IMG/VR virus record: IMGVR_UViG_3300034092_002634
Coordinates: 1 to 64,000 of that record
Strand: one strand, 5' to 3'
Length of the DNA: 64,000 nucleotides
Origin: a virus
Under the pieces are notes generated by a model. The model was not told the DNA's origin. It saw only the letters and a program-made list of their open reading frames with translations, and made no database searches. The translations under genes were made by a program, and so were the position numbers. Positions 51,124 to 64,000 of this stretch are shown here, one piece after another; the first letter of the stretch is position 1, and every line of letters starts with the position of its first letter.

Positions 51124-52589
51124 ATGCAGTTTGATCAGAATCTGCCAAACCCATGGCCCGACGATTTGTACTGGTTTGACCTGTACGATCGGTTCCCTTT
51201 ACTCGTCAGGTACAGAAGTTTTTACTCGACTGACTTTCAAAGTAGAGAGGACAACGTGCAAGTATGGTATTACGGTAAGTATGCCAGTATGGATGCAACT
51301 CCGGAAAATCATATTGACGTAGTGAATCGACTTCTGGTACACTTGGAAGCGAGTGAATTCTTACAGTGAGGTGTTTTATGGAAGAGAATGTATTGCCACA
51401 GGGCGAAGTACGGATTGAATATCCGTTTCCATCCTGCCCGTTGGGATTCGCGCTATTTACTCACGCGGTAAACAGCTATGAATTGTGTCTTGTTGAAGTC
51501 ATAACCACGCAGATCTTGCTACGAATTGGCACTTTCGAAACGATAGCCGAGGTGCAAGAAGAATACAGGAACTTTGTCGACACGTTTGCAGTTTCTATGC
51601 GCCAGATTGATTGGAACGATTAAGGCGATTACGCTGAAAGGAACAGGAATGACGTACTATTCTTCAGTTCGGGAAAAAGGAGTGTGGGTAGCATGGGGTT
51701 TCTACGATCAAGCACCTTCCAGCATCTTCACGTTTCTTGAGGAGACCGTCCGCACCTCGACAGTGTTTCGCATGTCTGGTGTTGTCAAAGTGTGGTGTGT
51801 GGGTCACAAGCACAGGCAGCATTTGGCGTTGGTGCTCTGCTCGAATCCTGAGGTTGCTCGCGACTACAAATATTGCGTATTCTGGTGGAACGAGGAGAAT
51901 CGTTCAAGCATTGACGGTATGGTTTTGCCTGAGTGCGAGAACAACGCGCAAGCCTTTTACCGAATCGGTATGTGCGAGCACAGAGAACCGATTACACAAG
52001 TGTACGAAGGCACATCGGTTGGCGAACATGTTGTAGTTTGGTACCGCTGGACATCCGAGAAGGAGCTTGCAAGCTATGAATGAATTTACATTAGAATGGG
52101 TACAGGTGAGTCCTATTGACTCACCTCTCCTTTTTGGATCGACACAACTTGAGCGGTACAAGCTTATGTACGGTTTTATGCCTCGAAACATTGAGTTGGT
52201 TTTCTGGCATCATGATGGCGAGATTCAGAATTTTATTGTTCCACTTGAGGACAAGGAAGACTCTTACACAATCGAGCTCAGTGTTACACGGTTTGACGAT
52301 TATAACCTGCTTATTAGCCGCACTGACACCAAGGATCTGGCATCTGCTCGGGCCTGTGTCGACTTCTACAAGAAACTCTGCACGCGAGGACTAGACGATG
52401 AATTTGAATAGATATGATACAATAAAAGAGCCACACAGTGGCCGCTCGAAAATTTTTGAATGGTATAGGAGTTTACGTATGGAGCATCTTGTTGGACTGA
52501 TTATGAGTGGCGTTTTTATTGTTCTTGTTGTTTCTAGCGCGTGGTACATGCTCACACTCTCCGAGCGCGGAGAGTCTGTTGATGAGTAA
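51124..52589 (+). CDS. Run of five small coupled hypothetical genes (51124-51369, ~51378-51623, ~51649-52083, ~52076-52411, 52398-52589)
   Basis: Overlapping stop/start codons and RBSs; no motif recognised; the last has one TM helix. Confidence 0.55.
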
Positions 52590-53976
52590 TGAAGATATTC
52601 CAGCATTTTTAGGTATTATGCCACGGTGGGTTGTCTATCAACTTCACACAGCGGATCACCAGATTGACGACTTGTTCGAGGTTGTTTTGGACTTGGGACG
52701 TGTTCCCGAGGCACGCTACCGAAACGCAACAATTCTTTTAGGCGACCGGGAGGTCACTGACTGGGATCTTGAAGAGTCGGTTAAAATGCTGAAGTTCGGT
52801 GAAGACAACCGTGCAGGCCTTCCCCGCATGCTTCACCGCATTTCAGCTATTCGCAGCCGCTCTGGCAAGATTGTGGGTCTTACGTGTCGATTTGGGCGAG
52901 CTATTACCGGTACGATCTCCCTGATTGAGGACTTGGTGGCATCTGGCAAGAGCGTGCTCATTCTTGGCCGCCCCGGTGTTGGTAAGACAACCATGCTTCG
53001 CGAGACCGCCCGTGTGTTGGCCGACGAGATGAAGAAGCGTGTCATTATTGTCGACACGTCGAACGAAATCGCAGGTGATGGGGATATTGCACATGATGGC
53101 ATTGGTCGCGCTCGCCGTATGCAGGTGCAGCGCCCAAGCGAACAGCACGCAGTCATGATTGAGGCAGTGGAAAACCACATGCCTGAGGTTATCATCATTG
53201 ATGAGATTGGCACTGAACTGGAAGCGCTGGCCTCGCGTACCATTGCTGAACGCGGTGTTCAACTCATCGGTACGGCTCACGGTCAGTTACTCGAGAACCT
53301 CATGGCCAATCCGACGTTGTCGGATCTGGTGGGTGGTATCCAAAGCGTCACTCTTGGGGACGAGGAAGCTCGTCGTCGGGGCACGCAGAAGACCGTTCTC
53401 GAGCGTAAGCAACCACCGACGTTCGATGTCCTTATCGAGATCCGTAGCTGGGATGAAGTCCTTGTCTATGACAACGTGGGTGAGGCAGTCGATTCCTTGC
53501 TTGCTGGCGAGGCTCCAGAGGGCGAGCAGCGCACAAGGGGTACCGATGGTACCATTACGGTAGAACGCGTCGTCTCAGAGGCAGCTGAGGGCCTAGCTGG
53601 GCAATCTGCGCAAAGCGTTCGTCGAGCACACAACAAGGCGCCTACCGCGAAAGGTCAGCGTCAGCGGGGAGACGGTCTTTCCGAGGTTACCAGCTTTCCC
53701 AAGATCAAGACTGTACCGGTGACGCAGCGCATCTACGCGTTTGGCTTGAACCGGAACAAGTTGGAGAAGGCGATTCAAGTGACTGGCGTACCTGCTACAA
53801 TTGTGCACGACATCGAGGAGGCCACGATGATCTTTACGCTGAAGAGCTATTATCGTCAGGGCTCGACTCGGCTTCGCGGGGCACGGCAAAAGAACATTCC
53901 GGTGCACGCGTTGCGTTCTCCGAGTGTGAATCAGATTGAACAGTCTCTGCGTAAGGTATTTCAGATAGAGTACTAA
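52582..53976 (+). CDS. Ycf45/SpoIIIAA-like AAA ATPase, lacking the C-terminal R3H domain
   Basis: EVVLDLGRVPEARY, LHRISAIR, GLTCR.GRA, GRPGVGKTT, VDTSNEIAGDGD, EAVENHMPEVIIIDEIG, GVQLIGTAHG. Confidence 0.88.
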   Translation: MSNEDIPAFLGIMPRWVVYQLHTADHQIDDLFEVVLDLGRVPEARYRNATILLGDREVTDWDLEESVKMLKFGEDNRAGLPRMLHRISAIRSRSGKIVGLTCRFGRAITGTISLIEDLVASGKSVLILGRPGVGKTTMLRETARVLADEMKKRVIIVDTSNEIAGDGDIAHDGIGRARRMQVQRPSEQHAVMIEAVENHMPEVIIIDEIGTELEALASRTIAERGVQLIGTAHGQLLENLMANPTLSDLVGGIQSVTLGDEEARRRGTQKTVLERKQPPTFDVLIEIRSWDEVLVYDNVGEAVDSLLAGEAPEGEQRTRGTDGTITVERVVSEAAEGLAGQSAQSVRRAHNKAPTAKGQRQRGDGLSEVTSFPKIKTVPVTQRIYAFGLNRNKLEKAIQVTGVPATIVHDIEEATMIFTLKSYYRQGSTRLRGARQKNIPVHALRSPSVNQIEQSLRKVFQIEY

Positions 53977-54349: not shown

Positions 54350-54979
54350 ATGGCAACACTTAACGCGAACTTACCTTACGTAGACGCCTACATCCGTAAG
54401 GAATACACGGGGCATACGGAGCACCTCAGTGGGTACATCTTTGGGGTAAAGTCGTGGCTTAACCGCCCGATGCACTTCCACTTCCTGTCGTCGATCGGGG
54501 CGATTTTTTGGAACATGCCAATTTCCGCGTTTGTGCACGACTTGGAATTTGATAAACTGTCGGACGTCGAGCAGACACGGCTATCGTTGCTGCAGACATG
54601 GGATTGCCAGTCAAACCACATCGCCGTGACGGTGTTTGCATTCTTGCAGAATCGTCGTGTCGATGTGCACTGCCGGGACGATGTTTGGCGAAGTGGTATA
54701 TATCAGTTCACCATTGACGACTATGATGGTGATCTTAACGAGACGCCTCTCGGGTATGCCAATCACCAGGATAGTAAGTGCTACCAGTTTATTCGCCTGG
54801 ATGATGGCAACTTTGGCATTCATCCGAACAACTTGTTACGCTGGCACAACCCTGACTTCATCGTACCGTATGATAAGAACAACAAGCCTCGGCTTCACGT
54901 CTACAGCGAGGAGATGTCGAGTGAGGACATCGATCGCACCTATGGCAACAGTCCGTATTACTTCTACAGCGCCGAGTAA
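54350..54979 (+). CDS. Hypothetical phage protein
   Basis: AGGAG RBS; 209 aa; MATLNANLP...IRKEY...PNN. Confidence 0.7.
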   Translation: MATLNANLPYVDAYIRKEYTGHTEHLSGYIFGVKSWLNRPMHFHFLSSIGAIFWNMPISAFVHDLEFDKLSDVEQTRLSLLQTWDCQSNHIAVTVFAFLQNRRVDVHCRDDVWRSGIYQFTIDDYDGDLNETPLGYANHQDSKCYQFIRLDDGNFGIHPNNLLRWHNPDFIVPYDKNNKPRLHVYSEEMSSEDIDRTYGNSPYYFYSAE

Positions 54980-54988
54980 GGAGAAAGT

Positions 54989-55342
54989 ATGAACACGAAC
55001 GCACGAACAGAATTCTTGGAGCACGTTGGCAACCGCATCGTGGTCGCCGCCCGCATGGCACCGACTGACTATGGTATAGAAAGCGACCGCATCGATTTGC
55101 AGGAGAAAGTCTATCTTAAGTTTGGTCTTTACCTCCCCGGTGTCGAGGGGCAAACCGAGTACGAGGAGTTTCTCAGCAAGCTGGAATTCCTCTATTACAA
55201 CGGGTACGGCCTGCAGTACATGGACGGTGTGATTTGGTACGAGGATGGCAGTTGGTCGGACCGCGACGAGTACGATGGCGCTGAGTGGTGGGTGCACCGT
55301 TCGCGGCCACGCATCCCCGATGAGTGTATGAAGGATCTGTGA
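54989..55342 (+). CDS. Hypothetical phage protein
   Basis: AAGGAG RBS; YYNGYG.Q...G.IWYEDGSWSDR.EYDGAEWW. Confidence 0.7.
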   Translation: MNTNARTEFLEHVGNRIVVAARMAPTDYGIESDRIDLQEKVYLKFGLYLPGVEGQTEYEEFLSKLEFLYYNGYGLQYMDGVIWYEDGSWSDRDEYDGAEWWVHRSRPRIPDECMKDL

Positions 55343-55434
55343 TGAGTAAGATCGCTATGGCTCTCTTGTGTGCTGTTCTCCTGTCGCTGGCGTTGCGTTT
55401 GCTTTATTATGTATTTGACTGGAGGTGGTATTAA
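55342..55434 (+). CDS. 30-aa membrane peptide
   Basis: MSKIAMALLCAVLLSLALRLLYYVFDWRWY; start overlaps the upstream stop; below the ORF-track cutoff. Confidence 0.5.
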   Translation: MSKIAMALLCAVLLSLALRLLYYVFDWRWY

Positions 55435-55438
55435 TGAT

Positions 55439-55531
55439 ATGGATAATCTCATTATTGCTGTGTTCTTCGGTGTATTACTGGCGTTCGTAGGGCTGATGTG
55501 TTACTTCGCACTCGGATGGTCTTGGTTTTAA
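55439..55531 (+). CDS. 30-aa membrane peptide
   Basis: MDNLIIAVFFGVLLAFVGLMCYFALGWSWF; GGAGGT RBS; below the ORF-track cutoff. Confidence 0.55.
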   Translation: MDNLIIAVFFGVLLAFVGLMCYFALGWSWF

Positions 55532-55620
55532 CGAGATCGAGGCTTGCATTTTGTTTTGAGTTGGTGTAGACTACGTATGTGCTACTAAGCATGTGTTGTT
55601 TCCCAGACGACACCACCTGG

Positions 55621-55677
55621 GACCCCCTCACGTTACGGCAGAACACGTGAGGGGTTCTTTTTTTTTTATTTTTTTTC
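55621..55677 (+). terminator. Strong intrinsic terminator
   Basis: Stem cccctcacgt...acgtgagggg followed by two long T-runs. Confidence 0.8.
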
Positions 55678-55875
55678 TGGCGTCTGCTGGCACTCTGGGG
55701 CTTTCTAGGGAGCATTGAACATTATGTTCAGTTGTCGAAACGGGTTGATGCTTTTTGAAATTTTTCAGTATGACAAAGGTATGGAAGGTGTAGGTATGTA
55801 TAGGGTTTTTGACTACCTACCATCTACTGCTTGTGTAAGTAGTAGTAATCAACTGTCTTTGAAAGGACAAACATC

Positions 55876-56040
55876 ATGTCGAGCATCATCATCATCACCG
55901 TCGTCGTCATCGTCGTCACCATCGTCGTTATCATCGCTATCCCTCAGTTGATCATGAAGGGTGCAAAGACGTCTCATGAGCTGTGGGTTGAGCGCAACAA
56001 CGAGGCAATCGCTCAGAACAATGCAGCGCGCCGCAAGTAA
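55876..56040 (+). CDS. 54-aa single-pass membrane protein
   Basis: AAAGGA RBS; MSSIIIITVVVIVVTIVVIIAIPQLIMKG...RRK; not in the ORF track. Confidence 0.7.
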   Translation: MSSIIIITVVVIVVTIVVIIAIPQLIMKGAKTSHELWVERNNEAIAQNNAARRK

Positions 56041-56042
56041 CC

Positions 56043-56108
56043 ACAGCGAAACAATCTACTCAGTAATGAGTAGGTTGTATGCAGTTTATAACTGCACTGA
56101 CGAGCTGT
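56043..56108 (+). ncRNA. Type II hammerhead ribozyme
   Basis: Stem II strand acagc, GAAA, stem III caatctactc/gagtaggttg (10 bp), UA cleavage after 56079 (GUA triplet), stem I tgcagtt/aactgca, core CUGACGA, stem II strand gctgt; the full conserved core is present. Confidence 0.93.
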
Positions 56109-56150
56109 TCGTTAGTAATCAGTATTGTCTCTTTGAAAGGACAAACAACC

Positions 56151-56633
56151 ATGTTCGCAGTCATCATCACCGTCTTCGCAGTCATCGTCGCCATCCGCAT
56201 CATCAGCAGCATCACCGTCGAGATCACCACCCACCAGTACGATGTCGAGTGTGAGTGTGTCAAGTGTCAGCAGACCAGCAAGGAGATTCGCAACATGAGT
56301 AAGTTGAACGTCAAGTCCATCGAGGAATACGCAGCCATCTACGCTCAATGGGTATCAGTCGACACCTCAGTCGAAGAGTACTCGGCAGCTGCAGTTGACG
56401 TCATCATCACCACAACCGGCACTTGGAAGATGACTTACGTCGTCAACAAGTCGGTTAAGTTCACTGGCCGCACGTCATACACCGGCAAGACTTCGGGTTG
56501 GTTGTTCGAAAACGTCAACACCGGTGCAAGCGACATGTACCTCCAGATCAGTGGTAAGTCCTCCGCATGGGAAGCTCGCAACTGGTTCGGTAACGGTAAC
56601 TTCGCTGTCAACACCAAGGTCGCTGTCAAGTAA
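56151..56633 (+). CDS. Membrane-anchored protein with HxYDVECECxxC motif
   Basis: RBS; N-terminal TM helix; HQYDVECECVKC. Confidence 0.75.
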   Translation: MFAVIITVFAVIVAIRIISSITVEITTHQYDVECECVKCQQTSKEIRNMSKLNVKSIEEYAAIYAQWVSVDTSVEEYSAAAVDVIITTTGTWKMTYVVNKSVKFTGRTSYTGKTSGWLFENVNTGASDMYLQISGKSSAWEARNWFGNGNFAVNTKVAVK

Positions 56634-56642
56634 CTAACCAAC

Positions 56643-56672
56643 TAGCAACGCTCACCTGCTACAGGATGTGAG
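56643..56672 (+). ncRNA. Pseudoknot class A, copy 1
   Basis: S1 tagca/tgcta, S2 ctcac/gtgag, linkers acg, c, caggat. Confidence 0.75.
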
Positions 56673-56715
56673 AATTATCAACATTGCCCAATAAGGGCTA
56701 GAGAGAGTGACTACA

Positions 56716-57030
56716 ATGGAGAACATGCTCAACATCACCGCAATCGCCGCCAACGACTGGAACGTCTGGACCTGTGCTCACTGTGAGTCGTGCAACTTCG
56801 GTGACACGAAGGTCTGCATCGTGTGTGACATGGGCCGCTGGACCAGCTGTGACATCGAGTGCGAGCACAACCGGCCAGCACCTGCTTCGGTAGCGGTATA
56901 CGTCAACTTGGATGAGGTTGTCCAGGTGCCGTTGCCATACACCAACATCCATCAGGTGCCTGCTAATTACAAGGAACTGATGGACATGGAGCGCGAAGGT
57001 GCTCTGCAGTTGGAAATGCGCTTGTCGTAG
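56716..57030 (+). CDS. Cys-rich Zn-finger protein
   Basis: WTCAHCESCN...VCIVC (RanBP2-like spacing). Confidence 0.7.
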   Translation: MENMLNITAIAANDWNVWTCAHCESCNFGDTKVCIVCDMGRWTSCDIECEHNRPAPASVAVYVNLDEVVQVPLPYTNIHQVPANYKELMDMEREGALQLEMRLS

Positions 57031-57040
57031 TCTTGTTCAC

Positions 57041-57072
57041 CTGCAACGCTCACCTGCAGTAATGGATGTGAG
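57041..57072 (+). ncRNA. Pseudoknot class A, copy 2
   Basis: S1 ctgca/tgcag, S2 ctcac/gtgag, linkers acg, c, taatggat. Confidence 0.75.
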
Positions 57073-57130
57073 ATGTCCGTATGTCCGTATGTGTGTTTAT
57101 TATTATGTTCTTTGAAAGGACAAAACTACC

Positions 57131-57496
57131 ATGAAGTCAGTCATCAACGCAGTCATCGGCATGTTCGTGTTGGTCGTCAGCCACTTGGTCATCTACTTCG
57201 TTCGCAACCTGAAGATGGGCTTCATCTTCGGCGTCGTCATGCTCACCTTGCTTGGCTTGGGCATCAGCGGCGAATTGCCTTCTATCGACATTGTCACCGC
57301 TAAGTGGGTAGGCATTCTGACCGTTGGGTACGCAGCTGTCGTTGCTGTATTCGGTGTGTTCGTAACCGCTTACGAGATTCGTAAGTACATGGCCAAGGAA
57401 GCAAAGGGCCAAGACACCTGGATTGAGCGGATTAACCTTCTTAAGGTTGTCTACAATGTTCCAGGATACAGCTTCCGCAACAACATCACCAAGTAG
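57131..57496 (+). CDS. Three-TM membrane protein
   Basis: RBS; three hydrophobic helices. Confidence 0.75.
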   Translation: MKSVINAVIGMFVLVVSHLVIYFVRNLKMGFIFGVVMLTLLGLGISGELPSIDIVTAKWVGILTVGYAAVVAVFGVFVTAYEIRKYMAKEAKGQDTWIERINLLKVVYNVPGYSFRNNITK

Positions 57497-57501
57497 TCAA
57501 C

Positions 57502-57535
57502 ACCGGAGTGGGCGGCAACCGGTCAACTTGCCCAC
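57502..57535 (+). ncRNA. Pseudoknot class B, copy 1
   Basis: S1 accgg/ccggt, S2 gtgggc/gcccac. Confidence 0.8.
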
Positions 57536-57538
57536 CAT

Positions 57539-57576
57539 TGGAGAAGTGATGCATCTCCAGCATAGATCAGCATCCT
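57539..57576 (+). ncRNA. Tandem pseudoknot class D, copy 1
   Basis: S1 tggaga/tctcca; loop ag-t-gatgc pairs with gcatc-ct. Confidence 0.55.
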
Positions 57577-57607
57577 TGCTGCGTTTGCAGCTAGAGGGGT
57601 ATTACCA

Positions 57608-57790
57608 ATGGGTAAGTACTATCGGTCCTCGGTGGTTGTTCGTTGGTTGGTGCACAGTCTGAGCGATTGTGCTATGAGACTGATGCCAATTGGTTTGTCT
57701 GATGTCGAGGACGGTAGTCTTCGGTGGAAAGCAGCCAACTGGCTGATGCGCAAGACTAGCGACTGGGCTGTCGCGCTTAAGAAGGTCTAG
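57608..57790 (+). CDS. Hypothetical protein
   Basis: 60 aa; RBS; fits the cassette pattern. Confidence 0.6.
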   Translation: MGKYYRSSVVVRWLVHSLSDCAMRLMPIGLSDVEDGSLRWKAANWLMRKTSDWAVALKKV

Positions 57791-57795
57791 TCCAC

Positions 57796-57834
57796 CGTGG
57801 AGTAAGCGGATAACCACGTTAAAAACTTGCTTAC
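57796..57834 (+). ncRNA. Pseudoknot class B, copy 2
   Basis: S1 cgtgg/ccacg, S2 gtaagc/gcttac. Confidence 0.8.
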
Positions 57835-57837
57835 CAT

Positions 57838-57875
57838 TGGAGAAGTAATGCAACTCCAGCATAGCACTGCATTCT
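57838..57875 (+). ncRNA. Tandem pseudoknot class D, copy 2
   Basis: S1 tggag/ctcca; loop ag-t-aatgca pairs with tgcatt-ct. Confidence 0.55.
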
Positions 57876-57932
57876 CGGATGACAATCATCTGAGCTATAG
57901 CTGCCATTGCAGCTAGAAAGGTACGCCTTACC

Positions 57933-58415
57933 ATGGGTAAGAAGTACAACACGTCCGCAGTCACCGTTCGTCCGATTGCCACCGGGGAGCTTGCCTTCCT
58001 GGTCGAGGCATGGGAGGGCATCAAGCCTTCCCGCAAAGCCGCGGTGACGGTGCGGATTGCTCGGGAGACCGAGCGTCCGGCCAACTGGCGGCCAAAGACC
58101 GACAAGATCGGTCGCCGTCCTCGGATTGAGGCGGTGGTGGCTGAGCGAGAAGTGGAGGAAGGGCCGCACGAGTGCGACTTCTCGATCAGCCGGTGGGAGG
58201 ATGTCATCTACCACCATAGCGGGTGGATTGACGTAACTATCGCACGGTGTGAGTGCGGTAGTTACAACATCACTCCGGAAGACCCGGAGATCCACATCTC
58301 CGAAGACGACCACGCTCACCAAGTGTGGATTATTAAAAAGTATAGGTGTAATCCTGTGGCGTACGTTTCCGAGTCGTACGAGGGCAGTTCGCCCTTCAAG
58401 AAGCTCGACCGGTAG
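57933..58415 (+). CDS. Hypothetical protein
   Basis: 160 aa; RBS; HEC...CECG possible metal site. Confidence 0.7.
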   Translation: MGKKYNTSAVTVRPIATGELAFLVEAWEGIKPSRKAAVTVRIARETERPANWRPKTDKIGRRPRIEAVVAEREVEEGPHECDFSISRWEDVIYHHSGWIDVTIARCECGSYNITPEDPEIHISEDDHAHQVWIIKKYRCNPVAYVSESYEGSSPFKKLDR

Positions 58416-58419
58416 TCAC

Positions 58420-58459
58420 ACGTGGAGTCAACGGATAACCACGTTAAAAACTTGTTGAC
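58420..58459 (+). ncRNA. Pseudoknot class B, copy 3
   Basis: S1 acgtgg/ccacgt, S2 gtcaac/gttgac. Confidence 0.8.
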
Positions 58460-58512
58460 CATTGTATATACATAATTCTGTGTATATACTAGCTCTCGAA
58501 AGGAGCACGGCT

Positions 58513-58737
58513 ATGGAATTCCTTGAGGTATTAGTTCGCGGTAAGACGGTCAAAGATGTCAGCGTCGAGCAGATCGCGCGCAACATCTACGAAGTCACGG
58601 TGGGCCATGGCGGCGGGGAAGAGGGCCCCGACGGTGAATGGCGTGGCTACGTAATCGGTCGTAGCCAAATTATCATCGCCAGTAGCATGTACGATGCGTG
58701 CTACAAGGCGCATCACTTAGCCAAGATAATTGGCTAA
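58513..58737 (+). CDS. Hypothetical protein
   Basis: AAGGAG RBS before MEFLEV. Confidence 0.7.
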   Translation: MEFLEVLVRGKTVKDVSVEQIARNIYEVTVGHGGGEEGPDGEWRGYVIGRSQIIIASSMYDACYKAHHLAKIIG

Positions 58738-58743
58738 GTGTGT

Positions 58744-58777
58744 TGCAGAGTGGGCGGTAACTGCATAACTTGCCCAC
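58744..58777 (+). ncRNA. Pseudoknot class B, copy 4
   Basis: S1 tgcag/ctgca, S2 gtgggc/gcccac. Confidence 0.8.
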
Positions 58778-58831
58778 CATTGCATACAGTATAATTCGGT
58801 ATTGTATGCTAGCTCTCGAAAGGAGCATATC

Positions 58832-59113
58832 ATGCATAAGTATGATGTAGAGTGTGAGTGTGTAGTGTGTGTGGCGTGGACCGACCGGATCGGGCATAAG
58901 TTGGAAACTGTGGCAACATACGTTGACAACAGTGGACACGATTACGACATTGAGTGCGAATGCACTGAGTGTCAGAAGATCACGGTGGCCGAGCGCGAAA
59001 TCCAGATGTATGTCCTGGGGGAACCAATCTCTGTCCCGGTTACGATCAATCCAGAGGTTCAGGAATTCGCTGACAAGAAGTTGTCGGATAGTATTCGGTT
59101 CGATCAGCACTAA
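58832..59113 (+). CDS. Protein with two HxYD[VI]ECECxxC motifs
   Basis: MHKYDVECECVVC...HDYDIECECTEC. Confidence 0.75.
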   Translation: MHKYDVECECVVCVAWTDRIGHKLETVATYVDNSGHDYDIECECTECQKITVAEREIQMYVLGEPISVPVTINPEVQEFADKKLSDSIRFDQH

Positions 59114-59122
59114 TCAGCACTA

Positions 59123-59153
59123 GAGCTCTCGGCAAAGCTCGTTAAACACCGAG
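59123..59153 (+). ncRNA. Pseudoknot class C, copy 1
   Basis: S1 gagc/gctc, S2 ctcgg/ccgag, L3 gttaaaca. Confidence 0.75.
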
Positions 59154-59162
59154 TAGAAGGGA

Positions 59163-59753
59163 ATGTCTATGTATGACATTCTGGTTGTGACGGTGTTGGC
59201 ATTCGTGATGATGGCCGTGTTATTGAAAGGTGGTCGGTAATGAGTCCTGCAGAACAACTATACGTCGAGAAGTTGTGTCGCCAGTACTATCAGGCGCTCT
59301 ATGGCGTAGATTACGTCGTAGAGTTCGGGCATATCTTGCTGTTTCCGCATAAGCATGCGGAGGCTGTGGTCAAGCTCGAGAAACTCATGGAGAATGTCGG
59401 TTACCAGGTAGTTCGCCTGGTAGAAATTCGGAAAGGGTAAACTAGTGCACAAGATCACCCTGTTAGACGTTCGGCATAGTGCTGCCGAAAAGCTGGCCAA
59501 AGAGAAACTGCGGGTAGAAGTACCCGCAGAATACAACGGGGATTGGTTCCCCGCTGTCATGTACGTACCTGCGTATCCCCGTCAGGAGGATCACAGCGTG
59601 GATGCTTACACGTTCAAATGTGTGAGCGTCAACGCTAGCCTGAAACGTCTTAGACGGCTCTACACGGCCCTTGGTGGACGCGCAATGCCTCCGTGGTCCG
59701 GTATATTGGTTGACGGCGTCGAGGTCAACGGGAACGTCAAGGACGGCGAGTAG
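59163..59753 (+). CDS. Three coupled small genes (59163/59169-59240 membrane peptide; 59240-59440; 59445-59753)
   Basis: TAATG coupling and a 4-nt gap; no motif recognised. Confidence 0.6.
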
Positions 59754-59758
59754 TCCAC

Positions 59759-59792
59759 CTGGAGTGAGGGGTAACCAGTATAACTTCCTCAT
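59759..59792 (+). ncRNA. Pseudoknot class B, copy 5
   Basis: S1 ctgg/ccag, S2 gtgagg/cctcat. Confidence 0.75.
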
Positions 59793-59823
59793 GTACTAAT
59801 TTAGCTCTTGAAAGGAGCGTGTC

Positions 59824-60075
59824 ATGCACAAGTATGACGTTGAGTGCGAGTGTGTCGAGTGTCAGAAATCCTGGAGGGTGGAGCACATCTGGGAGACCGT
59901 CAACTCCCAGGCGGAAGCAGACTGGACTTTCTCGGGTGACACCGAGGACGAGGTCGTCGCCGCTGCGTACAAGCGCAAAGAGACTCTTCGCCCCACTGAA
60001 GAAGAGTGGATGGCTGTGGAGGACAAGTTCTTTCTCTACAAAAAGGGGAAGTTCTTGGGAGAGTTTTCCCTTTAG
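59824..60075 (+). CDS. Protein with HxYDVECECxxC motif
   Basis: MHKYDVECECVECQK; AAGGAG RBS. Confidence 0.75.
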   Translation: MHKYDVECECVECQKSWRVEHIWETVNSQAEADWTFSGDTEDEVVAAAYKRKETLRPTEEEWMAVEDKFFLYKKGKFLGEFSL

Positions 60076-60081
60076 TAGTCC

Positions 60082-60115
60082 ACGTGGTAGTCGGATAACC
60101 ACGTTAAACACCGAC
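60082..60115 (+). ncRNA. Pseudoknot class C, copy 2
   Basis: S1 acgtgg/ccacgt, S2 gtcgg/ccgac, L3 taaaca. Confidence 0.8.
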
Positions 60116-60149
60116 ATCATTTTATGTGCAAAAGCACAAGGAGAATCCA

Positions 60150-60626
60150 ATGCCTAATTGGTGCAGTAACGTTGTTCAACTCAGCAAAGACGGGTACGAC
60201 TTTACGAGCATGGAAAAACGCATCCCTACCGAGGGACTCTATGCGCAATTCCTTCCCGCACCCGAGGGACTTGACGACCACCAACTGACGGATTGGTGCT
60301 ACGAGAATTGGGGCGTTAAGTGGGACACCCAGAACGCAGATGCCGGCGTCGATGGCGACCGCATTCAACTGTGTTTTGATAGCCCATGGAGCGCACCACG
60401 GCAGTGGCTCGCCTATATGGTGAGCATCGGGTTCGATGTCCGAGGTGCATTCTGGGAGCCAGGCATGGCCATGGGCGGTGTCTACACTACCTTGCACGAT
60501 GGAGCACTAGTTGCTCCAGCATTGGAGTGGACGCAGGACAACCTCGTCGAACGGGGTAGCGAAATGTACGAATATCTCATCAGTTACGGACTGATCTCAG
60601 AAGATGATGAAATGATCAACGACTAG
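60150..60626 (+). CDS. DUF1281/YubB ferredoxin-like fold protein
   Basis: MPNWCSN...DWCYENWGVKWD...FDSPWSAP...FWEPGM. Confidence 0.8.
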   Translation: MPNWCSNVVQLSKDGYDFTSMEKRIPTEGLYAQFLPAPEGLDDHQLTDWCYENWGVKWDTQNADAGVDGDRIQLCFDSPWSAPRQWLAYMVSIGFDVRGAFWEPGMAMGGVYTTLHDGALVAPALEWTQDNLVERGSEMYEYLISYGLISEDDEMIND

Positions 60627-60631
60627 CTCGC

Positions 60632-60665
60632 ACGAGGTAACCGGCAAACCTCGTTAAACACCGGT
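60632..60665 (+). ncRNA. Pseudoknot class C, copy 3
   Basis: S1 acgagg/cctcgt, S2 accgg/ccggt, L3 taaaca. Confidence 0.8.
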
Positions 60666-60695
60666 ATCTTTTTATGCTCACGAAAGGAGCACGGT

Positions 60696-60965
60696 ATGTT
60701 GTATTGCATGATGGCGGTGTCTCGATGGCTTACTGGTGACCCGGACTTCGGGTACGATGGGGAGATGATCCCCAAGGTCACCGCGGTGATCTACATCCGT
60801 GAACAGCCCTTTGAGGACTGGGAGCGGGAGGAAGGCAGGAATATCTGGAAAATCAAGCTCGGTGAGTCTACTGTTGTGTCAATGCATAGGTGGACAACTG
60901 ATCTCTCTCCAGTGGAGATCAGTACCAAGCATGACTGCGAAGTCATTGACTGGTCCAAGCGGTAA
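60696..60965 (+). CDS. Hypothetical protein
   Basis: AAGGAG RBS; 89 aa. Confidence 0.65.
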   Translation: MLYCMMAVSRWLTGDPDFGYDGEMIPKVTAVIYIREQPFEDWEREEGRNIWKIKLGESTVVSMHRWTTDLSPVEISTKHDCEVIDWSKR

Positions 60966-60974
60966 GTGGAGATC

Positions 60975-61008
60975 TCGGAGTGAGGGGATAACCGATGTAA
61001 CTTCCTCA
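60975..61008 (+). ncRNA. Pseudoknot class B, copy 6
   Basis: S1 tcgg/ccga, S2 tgagg/cctca. Confidence 0.75.
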
Positions 61009-61041
61009 ATAGTTATATTAGCTCTTGAAAGGAGCAACGCT

Positions 61042-61670
61042 ATGCAAGTACTGCAAGCACGGGGAATTATCCTGGAAAATCTGGAAGCGCTTCGCGAGTT
61101 CAAGCCCGAGGACTTGCGGCTGGTTGCGTTATACAACGCAGCAGCAGGGCAGTCCTGGGCCGAGTTCAACCTTATCCGCACAACGTGTGCGGACTGGGAC
61201 GAGCTCACCTACAACAACTTTGAGGAGGAAGACCTCAAGAATTTGTGGGACGAACTCTCTGAGCATTTCAGCAAAATCTGGGAAGGAACCAAGTAATGCG
61301 AGTACGTGGCAAGCAGCCGCATGTCTATCGTGAGTCAGAAACGGCTACGATAGCGCGGTACACCAACTTGCTCCCTCCTGTGTACGAGGCAAGTGCACAG
61401 GAGTGGAAGGTGTTTGGCCGTCAGGATACCATTGTCCGTGTTGGTACGCGGGCGACTATGCTGACGTATCTCAAGGGTAGGCGCGATCAGTATACTCGTA
61501 TGCACGGATACGAGGATTTGACTGACCCCTGCCTCAGGCTGAGGTGGGATACTAGTCTGCGGTGCTTTCACGTGACAGAGCCGCAGTTGGACCTACCCGT
61601 GTTCTCAGGTACTAAGTACATGTGTACGTGGTATCTGGTTGGCCGGTCGGACGAGTTCCAAGGCCTGTAG
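61042..61670 (+). CDS. Two coupled hypothetical genes (61042-61296; 61296-61670)
   Basis: AAGGAG RBS; TAATG coupling. Confidence 0.65.
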
Positions 61671-61673
61671 TGT

Positions 61674-61704
61674 GTTGACAACGCTCACCTGTGTCGGATG
61701 TGAG
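61674..61704 (+). ncRNA. Pseudoknot class A, copy 3
   Basis: S1 aca/tgt (or gaca/tgtc), S2 ctcac/gtgag, L3 ggat. Confidence 0.7.
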
Positions 61705-61746
61705 AAAGTAATTATAGCCCTGAGGGGCAAGAAGGAGAGTGTGACT

Positions 61747-62025
61747 ATGGGTAAGGTTATCACCGCAGCGGTCTTCATCAGCATGTTCAACAGCTCATTC
61801 CGGGACAGGCTCGAGTGGATGAGTGAGGAAGTTCGCGACCTCACGGTGGACGCGCTCACCCGGGAAGGCTACGACGAGGACGATTTGCGTCGGATGTCGG
61901 ATGCCTTTGCCAAGCTGGAGGAAAAGTCCAGCGACTTGATCGAGACAGACTACGCCAACGATCTGCTGAACGTGGACGAAGAGAGTCTCGATGAGGGTTA
62001 CTACTCGGATGGTGAAGACGAGTAG
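61747..62025 (+). CDS. Highly acidic small protein
   Basis: AAGGAG RBS; D/E-rich. Confidence 0.7.
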   Translation: MGKVITAAVFISMFNSSFRDRLEWMSEEVRDLTVDALTREGYDEDDLRRMSDAFAKLEEKSSDLIETDYANDLLNVDEESLDEGYYSDGEDE

Positions 62026-62034
62026 TAGGTAGCG

Positions 62035-62067
62035 GACTGGCAACTCTCGCCTGCGTCGGATGCGAGG
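62035..62067 (+). ncRNA. Pseudoknot class A, copy 4
   Basis: S1 gac-(tg)-gca/tgc-gtc, S2 ctcgc/gcgag, L3 ggat. Confidence 0.75.
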
Positions 62068-62109
62068 AAGTAATGTATAGCCCTGAGGGGCAAGAAGGAG
62101 AGTGTGACT

Positions 62110-62571
62110 ATGGGGACTCAGCATTGCGTCTTGATCCAGGACCGTTTCGACAACGAGGCCAAGTTCAACTTGGTCATCACCCACGACGTACCCTTCCACC
62201 CGGAAGCGGTCTTGTGGATTGCTCAGCTGTACACGGCAAAGCGTTGGGGGTCACAGCCCGACGTGTACCGCACTGCCGAGCTCGATGTCAGCGTCGACTG
62301 GAACGACATCGTGTACGTTCCGGCGCTAAATGTCCTGGACTTCGAGTCCTCGGACTACTGGCCAACACAGAAGCAGCTGAGGTTGGCTCGGATGGCGTTG
62401 GATTCGTACCGTATGTTTTATGACGAGTTGGCAAGGCAGGAGAAGATTATCTCCGGCTATGTCCGTCAGGAGATGCACAAGCAGTACGGTGAGGACACCG
62501 TCGCTATGCGTCTTCCCACCTTCCACAGCCGTGCTTCGGCATTGGACATCCTAGTTCATCTGGCACGGTAA
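62110..62571 (+). CDS. Hypothetical protein
   Basis: AAGGAG RBS; about 153 aa. Confidence 0.7.
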   Translation: MGTQHCVLIQDRFDNEAKFNLVITHDVPFHPEAVLWIAQLYTAKRWGSQPDVYRTAELDVSVDWNDIVYVPALNVLDFESSDYWPTQKQLRLARMALDSYRMFYDELARQEKIISGYVRQEMHKQYGEDTVAMRLPTFHSRASALDILVHLAR

Positions 62572-62577
62572 GTCCAC

Positions 62578-62611
62578 ACGAGGTAGCCGGCGAACCTCGT
62601 TAAACACCGGT
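62578..62611 (+). ncRNA. Pseudoknot class C, copy 4
   Basis: S1 acgagg/cctcgt, S2 gccgg/ccggt (G-U), L3 taaaca. Confidence 0.8.
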
Positions 62612-62648
62612 ATAGTATTATAAGTGCAAGAGCACAAAGGAGAGCAAG

Positions 62649-62975
62649 ATGCGTTACTCAATCAAGTTCGTGGCGAGTGCGAAGAAGTCCGTTCCCTTCG
62701 GCCTGGGTATGAGCAAGAAGTTCCACGACGCTGTGTGGAAGGGTGGGTGTAAGCGCCAGTGGCACGACATTGGTATCAAGGCCACGGAGTACTGCCTGCG
62801 GACACGTTCGTGCATGATCGACGTCGAGGCCTCGGACGCTGCTGAGTTGTCGTTTAAGCAGGAGGTGTGCCAGAGCCTGGTCGACTACATCTGGCAGGCA
62901 AGCAACAAGCCCTTTACAAGCGTAGAGGTGTTCGAGACGTGGAGTCACAAGGTTATCTACAAGGCTGATCTCTAG
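62649..62975 (+). CDS. Hypothetical protein
   Basis: AAGGAG RBS; 108 aa. Confidence 0.7.
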   Translation: MRYSIKFVASAKKSVPFGLGMSKKFHDAVWKGGCKRQWHDIGIKATEYCLRTRSCMIDVEASDAAELSFKQEVCQSLVDYIWQASNKPFTSVEVFETWSHKVIYKADL

Positions 62976-62979
62976 GAAT

Positions 62980-63011
62980 GTCTGGCAACTCCCACCTGCG
63001 ACGGATGTGGG
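62980..63011 (+). ncRNA. Pseudoknot class A, copy 5
   Basis: S1 gtc-(tg)-gca/tgc-gac, S2 cccac/gtggg, L3 ggat. Confidence 0.75.
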
Positions 63012-63050
63012 CAAGCAAAGCAATGTGCAAGTGCACAAAGGAGCAACAGC

Positions 63051-63911
63051 ATGTCTGATGTCAAAGTCCCTGCAGCAGAGCGTATTGGGTCCGCGATGGT
63101 TGAGAAGCTGATCGAGTCACTCGAAGCGGGAGTGGCAAACGGTCAATGGAAGCAGCCGTGGACAACGTCAAAGCAGATCAATGCGGTCACCGGGGCTAGC
63201 TACTCCGGTGCCAATGCGATCAACTTGATGTTGATTGGCGCGGAATGCCCTTACTGGGCTACCTTCAATCAGTGGTCGACAGCCGGTTACCGTATTCCAC
63301 AGGGTACGGAATCCAGCGGTTTTGTCCACACCCCTCCGAGACGGAACAAGAAGACGGAGAGCGGCGAAGAGATCACCATATTCGTCCCATCAAAGACGTT
63401 TGTGGTGTTCAACGGTTCACAAGTCGTTGACGCCGATGGCAACCCGTTCACGTGGGAATCTTCGCCACCTGTTCCGGTTCTTCCAGAGATCGAGGCCTTC
63501 TTCGCCAAGCACAATCCAACGATTGTGCATGACGATCCCAGTAGTGCATATTATCATCCGTCGAAAGACTTGATCAATATGCCGCCGATCAACTCGTTTG
63601 TTGACAATGTTTCATACTATGGAACGTTAGCGCACGAGATGATTCACTGGACTGCACACAAGGACCGGCTGGATCGCGATCTGTCTCAGTATGGCCGTGA
63701 TCGTAAAGTACGCGCATTCGAAGAACTCATAGCTGAGTTCGGCGCGGCCATTATCGGTAGTGAACTTGGTCTAACTACTGAGGTGAGAGATGACCATCTG
63801 CAGTATCTAGCTTCTTGGCTATCCTCCCTTAAGGAGGATAAGACGGTACTGCGGCGGGCGGTTACCGAAGCAGGTAAGGCTTCAGCCTACGTCAGCAGAG
63901 ATGCTGAGTAG
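63051..63911 (+). CDS. ardC: ArdC-family antirestriction protein (ssDNA-binding domain + zincin metallopeptidase)
   Basis: WKQPW, N..TG..YSGAN, WATFNQW, VFNGSQV, AYYHPSKDLINMP, LAHEMIHWT, EELIAE, YLASWL. Confidence 0.92.
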   Translation: MSDVKVPAAERIGSAMVEKLIESLEAGVANGQWKQPWTTSKQINAVTGASYSGANAINLMLIGAECPYWATFNQWSTAGYRIPQGTESSGFVHTPPRRNKKTESGEEITIFVPSKTFVVFNGSQVVDADGNPFTWESSPPVPVLPEIEAFFAKHNPTIVHDDPSSAYYHPSKDLINMPPINSFVDNVSYYGTLAHEMIHWTAHKDRLDRDLSQYGRDRKVRAFEELIAEFGAAIIGSELGLTTEVRDDHLQYLASWLSSLKEDKTVLRRAVTEAGKASAYVSRDAE

Positions 63912-64000
63912 TTTACATATACCGGTTAGCTCTCACAGAAAGGGGGTGATTACCACTTGCCACCATTCGGATTCATGGTGTTAGTTTTCTTCCATCTCCG

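What the first reader, a model, noticed from the sequence alone, without database searches (positions are those of the whole stretch)
56043..56108. Type II hammerhead ribozyme 2 nt after a stop codon in a phage operon
All conserved core nucleotides are present (CUGANGA, GAAA, UH) with three well-formed stems; stem II is open, which makes it type II. Predicted cleavage is after A56079. Established chemistry: this leaves a 2',3'-cyclic phosphate on the upstream 54-aa gene's message and a 5'-OH on the downstream RNA. Hammerheads are known in phages, but here it is the first member of a regular array of RNA elements, which suggests a function in mRNA processing.
Basis: partly seen in the sequence, partly recalled or inferred. 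Interest (0 to 1): 0.75.

Follow-up and report, generated by a model that had tools for sequence, protein, structure and literature searches.

The report
Hammerhead ribozyme between two phage genes
A genuine self-cutting RNA (type II hammerhead ribozyme) sits just after the stop codon of the first gene in a block of small genes of an uncultured lake phage; this kind of element is well known and common in phages, though this copy has flanking sequences that can mask it.

Summary
Window 56043-56108 (+) carries every conserved hammerhead nucleotide and three clean helices, with stem II open (type II). The predicted cut is A56079|U56080, and the motif starts 2 nt after the TAA of a 54-aa gene. Shuffled genomes never produce such a motif (0 of 300). 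A covariance model trained on 101 other viral type II hammerheads, with this copy held out, scores it 41.1 bits (E about 1e-9). Rfam's own model gives only 18.8 bits, below its cut-off of 37. A paralogue (HH2) lies after the last gene of the same roughly 25-gene block, outside the window, and differs by compensatory changes in all three stems. Position flush against a stop codon is typical of the family (71 of 101 copies), and arrays of up to 24 copies occur in other phage contigs. This scan has already reported many such cases on other DNA, so this is a new member of a known kind. Two points are specific to this copy. A related contig lacks it and has a pseudoknot element at that position. 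Both flanks can pair with and mask the ribozyme, which is an outlier within the family. Self-cleavage and function are untested. The most likely role is cutting the polycistronic message into pieces with hairpin-protected ends.

The parts
55876..56040 (+). Gene 1: 54-aa predicted single-pass membrane protein, stop TAA at 56038-56040, no family match
   Evidence: Same RBS module as the next genes.
55980..55986 (+). GCUGUGG inside gene 1, complementary over 7 bp to 56041-56047. It could act as an anti-stem-II mask.
   Evidence: Minimum-energy fold of the 191-nt context. Flank-shuffling test.
56043..56047 (+). Stem II, 5' strand (ACAGC)
56048..56051 (+). Conserved G12 A13 A14 and A15.1
56051..56078 (+). 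Stem III hairpin, 12 bp, loop GUAA, closed by A15.1-U16.1
56079..56080 (+). Cleavage site: H17 = A56079, scissile bond to U56080 (position 1.1)
   Evidence: Follows from the hammerhead numbering applied. Not shown experimentally.
56080..56096 (+). Stem I hairpin, 7 bp, loop UAU
56097..56103 (+). Catalytic core C3 U4 G5 A6 C7 G8 A9 (CUGACGA)
56104..56108 (+). Stem II, 3' strand (GCUGU)
56109..56116 (+). 3' tail UCGUUAGU, complementary over 8 bp to 56096-56103 (the core), with stem II's 3' strand as the loop. This is an alternative core-masking hairpin.
   Evidence: (222 of 200,000 random genome 30-mers do as well)
56123..56153 (+). Leader module shared with genes 1 and 3: hairpin holding the Shine-Dalgarno AAAGGA (56136-41), then ATG 56151
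   Evidence: family D17
56151..56633 (+). Gene 2: 160-aa protein with N-terminal membrane anchor, no family match. Absent from relative contig L130.

Best explanation
Window 56043-56108 encodes a genuine type II hammerhead ribozyme (HH1). When the plus-strand block of small genes (55.9-66.8 kb of the phage) is transcribed, the RNA folds into the three-way junction. It then cuts itself by internal transesterification between A56079 and U56080. The message of gene 1 is left with a 39-nt tail that ends in the 12-bp stem III hairpin and a 2',3'-cyclic phosphate. The downstream message starts with a 5'-hydroxyl one nucleotide before the stem I hairpin, 71 nt ahead of the gene 2 start codon. After the cut only the 5-bp stem II holds the halves together. 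Each half can refold on itself: GCUGUGG with CCACAGC upstream, and core with tail downstream. The cut is therefore effectively irreversible, and both new ends are buried in hairpins. The result is two messages whose decay and translation are uncoupled. The motif, its family membership and its placement are shown. The cleavage, the end chemistry in vivo and the effect on stability are inferred.
For: All invariant core nucleotides and G10.1-C11.1 are present. The minimum-energy fold equals the hammerhead fold, z = -5.35. The strict descriptor gives 0 hits in 300 shuffled genomes against 2 observed. A model built from 101 non-redundant viral type II hammerheads, with HH1 and HH2 held out, scores HH1 at 41.1 bits, E about 1e-9. 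The next best hit in the window is 10.6 bits. HH1, its paralogue HH2 and two HH2 orthologues pair in 99 of 99 cells, with 5 pairs changed on both sides. Slid controls pair in 26-47% of cells. All genes from 55.9 to 66.8 kb are on the plus strand. Placement right after a stop codon is typical of the family: 71 of 101 copies against 8% of random positions. Clustered prophage hammerheads cut 2-kb polycistronic transcripts in vitro and in E. coli (PMC3088659). Three type II hammerheads near phage-like genes cleave in vivo in Desulfovibrio vulgaris (PMC8782182). The predicted 3' product folds into two adjacent 5'-terminal hairpins.
Against: No cleavage or expression data exist for this phage. Rfam's Hammerhead_II model scores HH1 at only 18.8 bits against a cut-off of 37. 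I found no loop I to 3' tail pseudoknot, which most type II copies use for fast cleavage at physiological Mg2+ (PMC3088659), so cleavage may be slow. In its native 176-nt context (65 nt upstream and 45 nt downstream of the motif) the nearest-neighbour model disfavours the active fold by 9.5 kcal/mol, so a large share of transcripts may stay uncut. The close relative L130 does without HH1, so it is dispensable for the gene block.
Confidence: 0.62

Rival explanations
1. Gated (bistable) hammerhead. HH1 is catalytically competent but is normally held in an inactive fold by its own flanks. The coding segment 55980-86 sequesters stem II's 5' strand, and the tail 56109-16 sequesters the CUGACGA core. 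Cleavage would then occur only in a kinetic window during transcription, or when ribosomes translating gene 1 melt the upstream mask. The share of cut transcript would then report on translation or timing.
For: The native flanks cost 9.5 kcal/mol against the active fold, compared with 2.2 +/- 1.8 for shuffled flanks (0 of 300 as high). Each flank alone costs about 4.5-5 kcal/mol. This is not a family habit: among 60 other viral copies the median z is -0.27 and 2% exceed z = 2, and HH2 is ordinary. The 8-bp core-tail helix starts at the first tail nucleotide, and 0.11% of random genome 30-mers do as well.
Against: I noticed this post hoc, from a thermodynamic model that ignores hammerhead tertiary energy and ribosomes. 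The only other copy found (L136) is identical, so there is no covariation test. The upstream mask is coding sequence that L130 also has without any hammerhead. Across the family, tail-core complementarity is not enriched. The same pairings fit equally well as refolding after cleavage.
Confidence: 0.2
2. Cassette passenger. HH1 is an active or recently active ribozyme that came in with the gene 2 cassette. It marks a recombination junction and has little effect on phage fitness.
For: L130 carries the whole gene block and an HH2 orthologue but neither HH1 nor gene 2. Its single first gene joins an N-terminus like that of gene 2 to a C-terminus like that of gene 1, and is followed directly by the pseudoknot element that follows gene 2 in this phage. 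The leader and the N-terminal coding segment are duplicated on either side of HH1.
Against: The core is intact at every invariant position. The copy is identical in a second, mosaic genome (L136) and in contigs of three metagenome runs from two studies. Every other gap in the block also holds a conserved RNA element, which argues that such boundary elements are selected.
Confidence: 0.1
3. Bracketing pair for excision or circularisation. HH1 and HH2 cut out the 10.8-kb block RNA. Its 5'-OH and 2',3'-cyclic phosphate ends could then be rejoined by the reverse hammerhead reaction or by a host RtcB-type ligase.
For: The two hammerheads occupy the first and last gaps of the block, in the same orientation. 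HH2's 5' stem II strand ACGGC can pair with HH1's 3' strand GCUGU with one G-U pair. The ends of the excised RNA could therefore rebuild a complete hammerhead core (read). Perreault et al. raised circular products as a possibility (PMC3088659).
Against: L130 keeps the block and HH2 without any upstream hammerhead, so the bracket is not conserved. Perreault et al. looked for spliced or circular products and found none (PMC3088659). Stem II compatibility rests on one variable position.
Confidence: 0.04
4. Not a ribozyme: a chance or decayed look-alike whose hairpins act only as ordinary stabilising or terminator-like structures.
For: There was no Rfam hit at gathering threshold. No tertiary contact was identified. 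No orthologous variation is available for HH1 itself.
Against: The held-out model gives 41.1 bits. The strict descriptor gives 0 hits in 300 shuffles. All 13 invariant family columns match. HH2 differs by compensatory changes.
Confidence: 0.04

Closest known systems
Type II hammerhead ribozymes clustered between genes of prophages and phages (Rfam RF02276; Perreault et al. 2011, PMC3088659)
   Same: Same core, same permutation (stems I and III capped, stem II open), same U1.1-A2.1/UGC...GCA base of stem I. It is intergenic in a phage operon, with a second copy flanking a block of genes.
   Different: Stem II is 5 bp (family mode 2 bp) and stem III is 12 bp (mode 7 bp). H17 is A rather than C. 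No loop I to tail pseudoknot was found. It scores below the Rfam cut-off. The other gaps of the block hold pseudoknot elements rather than hammerheads.
Three type II hammerheads of Desulfovibrio vulgaris shown to cleave in vivo by cyPhyRNA-seq (PMC8782182)
   Same: Type II architecture, near hypothetical and phage-like genes. Products are a 2',3'-cyclic phosphate and a 5'-OH.
   Different: Those copies have direct evidence of in vivo cleavage. HH1 has none.
Large hammerhead arrays in uncultured phage contigs
   Same: One structured RNA per gap between small plus-strand genes, starting at or just after the stop codon.
   Different: Here only the first and last gaps hold hammerheads.
Engineered ribozyme insulators such as RiboJ (an sTRSV hammerhead plus hairpin placed ahead of an RBS; from my own knowledge, not checked here)
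   Same: Cleavage removes upstream RNA context and leaves a 5'-OH followed by a hairpin ahead of the ribosome-binding site.
   Different: RiboJ is synthetic, is not type II, and is placed after a promoter rather than between cistrons.
Hammerheads in 5' UTRs of fungal and plant RNA viruses that enable translation (PMC13725137)
   Same: A viral self-cleaving ribozyme just upstream of an ORF, where cleavage sets the 5' end of the translated RNA.
   Different: Those are eukaryotic hosts, type I ribozymes and cap-independent translation, none of which applies to bacteria.

Membership tests
Hammerhead ribozyme, type II (RF02276) | Core C3 U4 G5 A6 N7 G8 A9 | tested here: met
   CUGACGA at 56097-56103. 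It aligns to the model core.
Hammerhead ribozyme, type II (RF02276) | G12 A13 A14, the A15.1-U16.1 pair, and H17 not G | tested here: met
   GAAA at 56048-51, A56051 pairs with U56078, H17 is A56079.
Hammerhead ribozyme, type II (RF02276) | G10.1-C11.1 closing pair of stem II | tested here: met
   G56104 with C56047. This pair is invariant in 101 of 101 family members.
Hammerhead ribozyme, type II (RF02276) | Three helices around the core, stems I and III capped by loops, stem II open | tested here: met
   The minimum-energy fold gives 7, 5 and 12 bp for stems I, II and III.
Hammerhead ribozyme, type II (RF02276) | Helices supported by covariation | tested here: met
   HH1 against HH2 and two HH2 orthologues: 99 of 99 cells paired, 5 pairs changed on both sides, slid controls 26-47%. 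Family: 14 of 16 pairs have compensatory changes. No orthologous variants of HH1 itself exist.
Hammerhead ribozyme, type II (RF02276) | Score at or above Rfam's gathering cut-off (37 bits). This is a curated threshold of one model, not a biochemical feature. | tested here: not met
   HH1 scores 18.8 bits, full model length, E = 0.062 in a 96-nt scan of all families. HH2 scores 28.9 bits. The Rfam consensus has a 2-bp stem II, a short stem III and a pseudoknot tail. A model from 101 viral copies with HH1 held out gives 41.1 bits, E about 1e-9.
Hammerhead ribozyme, type II (RF02276) | Pseudoknot between loop I and the nucleotides 3' of stem II. This is frequent but not universal (PMC3088659). 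| tested here: not met
   By inspection, loop I varies (UAU, CAC, CUA) while the tails of the HH2 group stay constant. At most 3-4 bp are possible for HH1.
Hammerhead ribozyme, type II (RF02276) | Site-specific self-cleavage giving a 2',3'-cyclic phosphate and a 5'-OH | not testable with these tools
   No RNA data were available (see Tried and rejected).
Clustered phage and prophage hammerheads (Perreault 2011) | Intergenic, same strand as the flanking genes, multiple copies flanking genes or gene blocks | tested here: met
   HH1 follows gene 1 and HH2 follows the last gene of the plus-strand block. The distance from stop codon to G12 is 7 nt, within the family's 2-12 nt mode.

The most novel reading that the evidence does not exclude
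HH1 is a translation- or folding-gated hammerhead. Two flanking segments have been shaped to mask stem II and the catalytic core: one inside the upstream coding sequence, the other the first 8 nt of the 3' tail. The phage would then cut the message only after ribosomes have passed through gene 1, or only in a short co-transcriptional window. That would make it a natural ribozyme switch without a ligand.
Probability: 0.15. Interest if true: 0.65.

Novelty: new member of a known kind. Interest (0 to 1): 0.3.

Why it matters
The biological role of bacterial and phage hammerheads is still unproven fifteen years after their discovery (PMC3088659, PMC6765202). This copy adds little as a ribozyme. 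The locus is nonetheless a convenient test bed, for three reasons. One phage uses hammerheads at both ends of a gene block and a different RNA fold at the internal boundaries. A near relative has that other fold exactly where HH1 sits. And HH1 carries two potential self-masking pairings. Swapping these elements in a two-gene reporter would test directly whether cleavage and non-cleaving folds do the same job of insulating and stabilising messages.

Tried and rejected
- **Rfam scans.** The gathering scan of the whole window gave 0 hits. An E-value scan of 55300-64000 gave 0 hits at E <= 1. The hammerhead model appears only when 96 nt are scanned.
- **freshwater-2 RNA.** A weak match (RF02980, 25 bits against a cut-off of 49.9) is driven by the hairpins and the RBS. 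I rejected it.
- **Relatives by sequence search.** GenBank phages by blastn gave no match. IMG/VR with the gene 2 protein gave no relative. A DNA search of the two related IMG/VR records for the HH1 region found nothing. One of those contigs ends inside the gene block, so its lack of HH1 says nothing.
- **Tool limits.** Relatives cannot be drawn for a virus record. The metagenome loci are not held as whole records, so the 84-kb relative behind L132 could not be scanned.
- **Sequencing runs.** No RNA holder is listed. Contigs of four DNA runs were laid; three cover HH1 and show no differences there, so there are no natural variants to test pairing.
- **Loop I to tail or leader pseudoknot.** None is convincing (inspection).
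- **Tail-core complementarity across the family.** It is not enriched (25 of 103 with at least 5 bp, against 26.5 when tails are permuted). Permuting tails is a poor null for the position-specific test because the cores are nearly identical.
- **A decayed hammerhead copy upstream of gene 1 (about 55790-55815).** Local alignment score 18, reached by 91 of 2000 shuffles. This is too weak.
- **Promoter scan of 54800-57300.** Nothing on the plus strand. The minus-strand terminator-like hit at 56073-56056 is simply stem III read backwards.
- **Pfam and PHROGs on genes 1 and 2.** No family.

Full report
**What is there**

The window is the first 64 kb of an 82,652-bp IMG/VR virus record that CheckV rates 100% complete. 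It encodes ribonucleotide reductase and terminase- and portal-like proteins, and it holds a 6477-aa ORF. DNA contigs of lake, freshwater and subsurface metagenomes hold the same sequence.

From about 55.9 to 66.8 kb there are roughly 25 small plus-strand genes, mostly separated by gaps of about 60-140 nt. The finding lies in the first of these gaps.

**The motif**

Read directly, the layout is:

| Feature | Sequence | Coordinates |
|---|---|---|
| Stop codon of the 54-aa gene | TAA | 56038-40 |
| Spacer | CC | 56041-42 |
| Stem II, 5' strand | ACAGC | 56043-47 |
| G12 A13 A14 and A15.1 | GAAA | 56048-51 |
| Stem III | 12 bp, GUAA loop | 56051-78 |
| H17 | A | 56079 |
| Stem I | 7 bp | 56080-96 |
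| Catalytic core | CUGACGA | 56097-103 |
| Stem II, 3' strand | GCUGU | 56104-08 |

Every invariant hammerhead position is present, including G10.1-C11.1 and A15.1-U16.1. Stems I and III are capped and stem II is open, so this is type II.

The 66-nt RNA folds into exactly this shape: -27.5 kcal/mol, z = -5.35, and no shuffle out of 200 does as well.

**Is it more than chance?**

- A descriptor search finds this motif and no other in the window on either strand.
- In the whole genome it finds two. Three hundred dinucleotide-preserving shuffles of the genome give none under the strict settings and 0.2 on average under loose ones.
- Rfam does not report it at gathering threshold. In a 96-nt scan the Hammerhead_II model aligns end to end at 18.8 bits, against a cut-off of 37. 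The second copy reaches 28.9 bits.
- The Rfam consensus has a 2-bp stem II, a short stem III and a pseudoknot tail, and these copies have none of those features.
- I therefore collected type II hammerheads from IMG/VR with a consensus pattern.
- I kept 101 non-redundant copies and aligned them. The classical structure has compensatory changes in 14 of 16 pairs.
- I built a covariance model without HH1 or HH2. HH1 scores 41.1 bits (E about 1e-9) and HH2 48.7 bits. The next best hit in the window is 10.6 bits.

Membership of the viral type II hammerhead family is therefore secure on sequence and structure.

**The paralogue (HH2)**

- HH2 lies at G000 66838-66905, outside the window. It also starts 2 nt after a stop codon, that of the last gene of the block, and it is followed by terminator-like hairpins.
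- HH1, HH2 and two diverged HH2 orthologues from metagenome contigs (L130, L132) pair in 99 of 99 cells of the three helices. Five pairs are changed on both sides. Slid controls pair in 26-47% of cells.
- HH1 itself occurs only as identical copies. These are L136, which is a mosaic relative with two replaced genes, and contigs of three DNA runs. HH1 therefore has no orthologous covariation of its own.

**Context and comparison**

- The gaps downstream of HH1 hold several families of repeated, apparently structured elements. One example is five copies of GCAACGCUCACCUGC...GGAUGUGAG in which the arms change together (CUCAC/GUGAG, CUCGC/GCGAG, CCCAC/GUGGG). There are also stereotyped Shine-Dalgarno hairpins. 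The "regular array" is real, and hammerheads occupy its first and last positions.
- Position against a stop codon is a habit of the family. In 71 of 101 viral copies the stop of an upstream ORF of at least 40 codons ends 2-12 nt before G12, against 8% of random positions. For the 89 copies where a downstream gene start could be called, it lies a median of 23 nt after the ribozyme.
- Arrays can be very large. One 57-kb contig has 24 copies in 7.5 kb.
- Perreault et al. described clustered type II hammerheads flanking genes in prophages. They showed cleavage of polycistronic transcripts in vitro and in E. coli, and proposed processing into single-gene messages (PMC3088659).
- Three type II copies cleave in vivo in Desulfovibrio (PMC8782182).
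- The function is still described as unproven (PMC6765202).
- Earlier notes of this scan report many such cases on other DNA.

**What the nearest relative shows**

Contig L130 carries the whole block at roughly 33-97% protein identity, together with an HH2 orthologue. It has neither HH1 nor gene 2.

Its first gene has the N-terminus of this phage's gene 2 and the C-terminus of gene 1. It is followed by the pseudoknot element, which starts about 19 nt after the stop codon; in this phage that element follows gene 2.

Relative to L130, "HH1 + leader + gene 2" is therefore an insertion or deletion cassette. The leader (UAGUAAUCA...UGUCU...UUGAAAGGACAAACA) and the start of the coding sequence are duplicated on both sides of HH1.

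Three things follow:
- HH1 is dispensable for the block.
- The bracket formed by HH1 and HH2 is not conserved.
- A hammerhead and a pseudoknot can occupy the same post-stop position.

**A feature specific to HH1**

In its native context the predicted fold is not the hammerhead. Two alternative pairings replace it:
- GCUGUGG (55980-86, inside gene 1) pairs with CCACAGC (56041-47).
- The first eight tail nucleotides, UCGUUAGU (56109-16), pair with ACUGACGA (56096-103), looping out stem II's 3' strand.

The native flanks cost 9.5 kcal/mol against the active fold, compared with 2.2 +/- 1.8 for shuffled flanks (0 of 300 as high). HH2 is ordinary at 3.1. Sixty other family members have a median z of -0.27. 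An 8-bp helix at the start of the tail occurs in 0.11% of random genome 30-mers.

Across the family, tail-core complementarity is not enriched. It fits two readings: refolding of both products after the cut, or gating before it.

**Most likely mechanism**

- **Shown:** a complete type II hammerhead on the coding strand, between two cistrons.
- **Inferred from the chemistry of the class:** cleavage at 56079|56080, which leaves a 2',3'-cyclic phosphate on a gene 1 message ending in a 12-bp hairpin. It also leaves a 5'-OH one nucleotide before a hairpin on the gene 2 message.
- **Inferred by analogy with known decay pathways (my own knowledge):** such ends resist 3' exonucleases and 5'-end-dependent decay, so the two messages acquire separate lifetimes.

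No tertiary contact between loop I and the tail is visible, so the rate at cellular Mg2+ is uncertain.

**Verdict**

This is a real hammerhead, correctly read by the first stage, and ordinary in kind and placement. The modest extra interest comes from the masking flanks and from the interchange with a pseudoknot element in a relative.

Noticed in passing
G000 66838-66905 (+), outside the window; locus L004:1500-1567: A second type II hammerhead (HH2) lies 2 nt after the stop of the last gene of the block and is followed by terminator-like hairpins. It is conserved with structure-preserving changes in L005, L129, L130 and L132.
   Followed up: yes
G003 = IMGVR_UViG_3300017605_000570, about 9.9-17.5 kb (L014, L126): Twenty-four type II hammerheads in 7.5 kb, about one every 300 nt. 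IMGVR_UViG_3300047317_000073 (L074) has 7 by the model and 12 by my descriptor.
   Followed up: partly
L130:10940-11240 (-): The relative's first gene fuses an N-terminus like gene 2 to a C-terminus like gene 1. It is followed by the class-A pseudoknot element instead of a hammerhead, so HH1 plus gene 2 is an indel cassette.
   Followed up: partly
window 56640-56675, 57040-57075, 61675-61711, 62037-62073, 62982-63018: Five copies of an element GCAACGCUCACCUGC...GGAUGUGAG, in which the two arms change together. Other repeated intergenic families occur (for example CACGNGG...AACCNCGUUAAACACCG at 57788, 58413, 60073, 60631 and 62577). None matches Rfam.
   Followed up: partly
window 55740-55875: The non-coding leader upstream of gene 1 is almost identical in the diverged relative L130, so it is better conserved than the gene itself. 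It is probably a promoter or 5' UTR. No sigma-70 consensus was found.
   Followed up: partly
window 56056-56153 (+): A weak sub-threshold match to the Rfam freshwater-2 RNA motif (25 bits, cut-off 49.9), driven by two hairpins and the RBS.
   Followed up: no
window 12483-31916 (-): A single 6477-aa open reading frame.
   Followed up: no
window 56232-56272, 58832-58870, 58937-58977, 59824-59867: A repeated coding motif H-x-Y-D-[VI]-E-C-E-C-x-x-C in three otherwise unrelated small proteins, seen as direct-repeat families D2 and D6.
   Followed up: no
window 52507-53976 and 54350-54979 (+): A P-loop ATPase fused to a C-terminal PTPase domain (PF25516, 81 bits), and a protein matching phrog_3704, annotated as ferredoxin. 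Both lie just upstream of the small-gene block.
   Followed up: no
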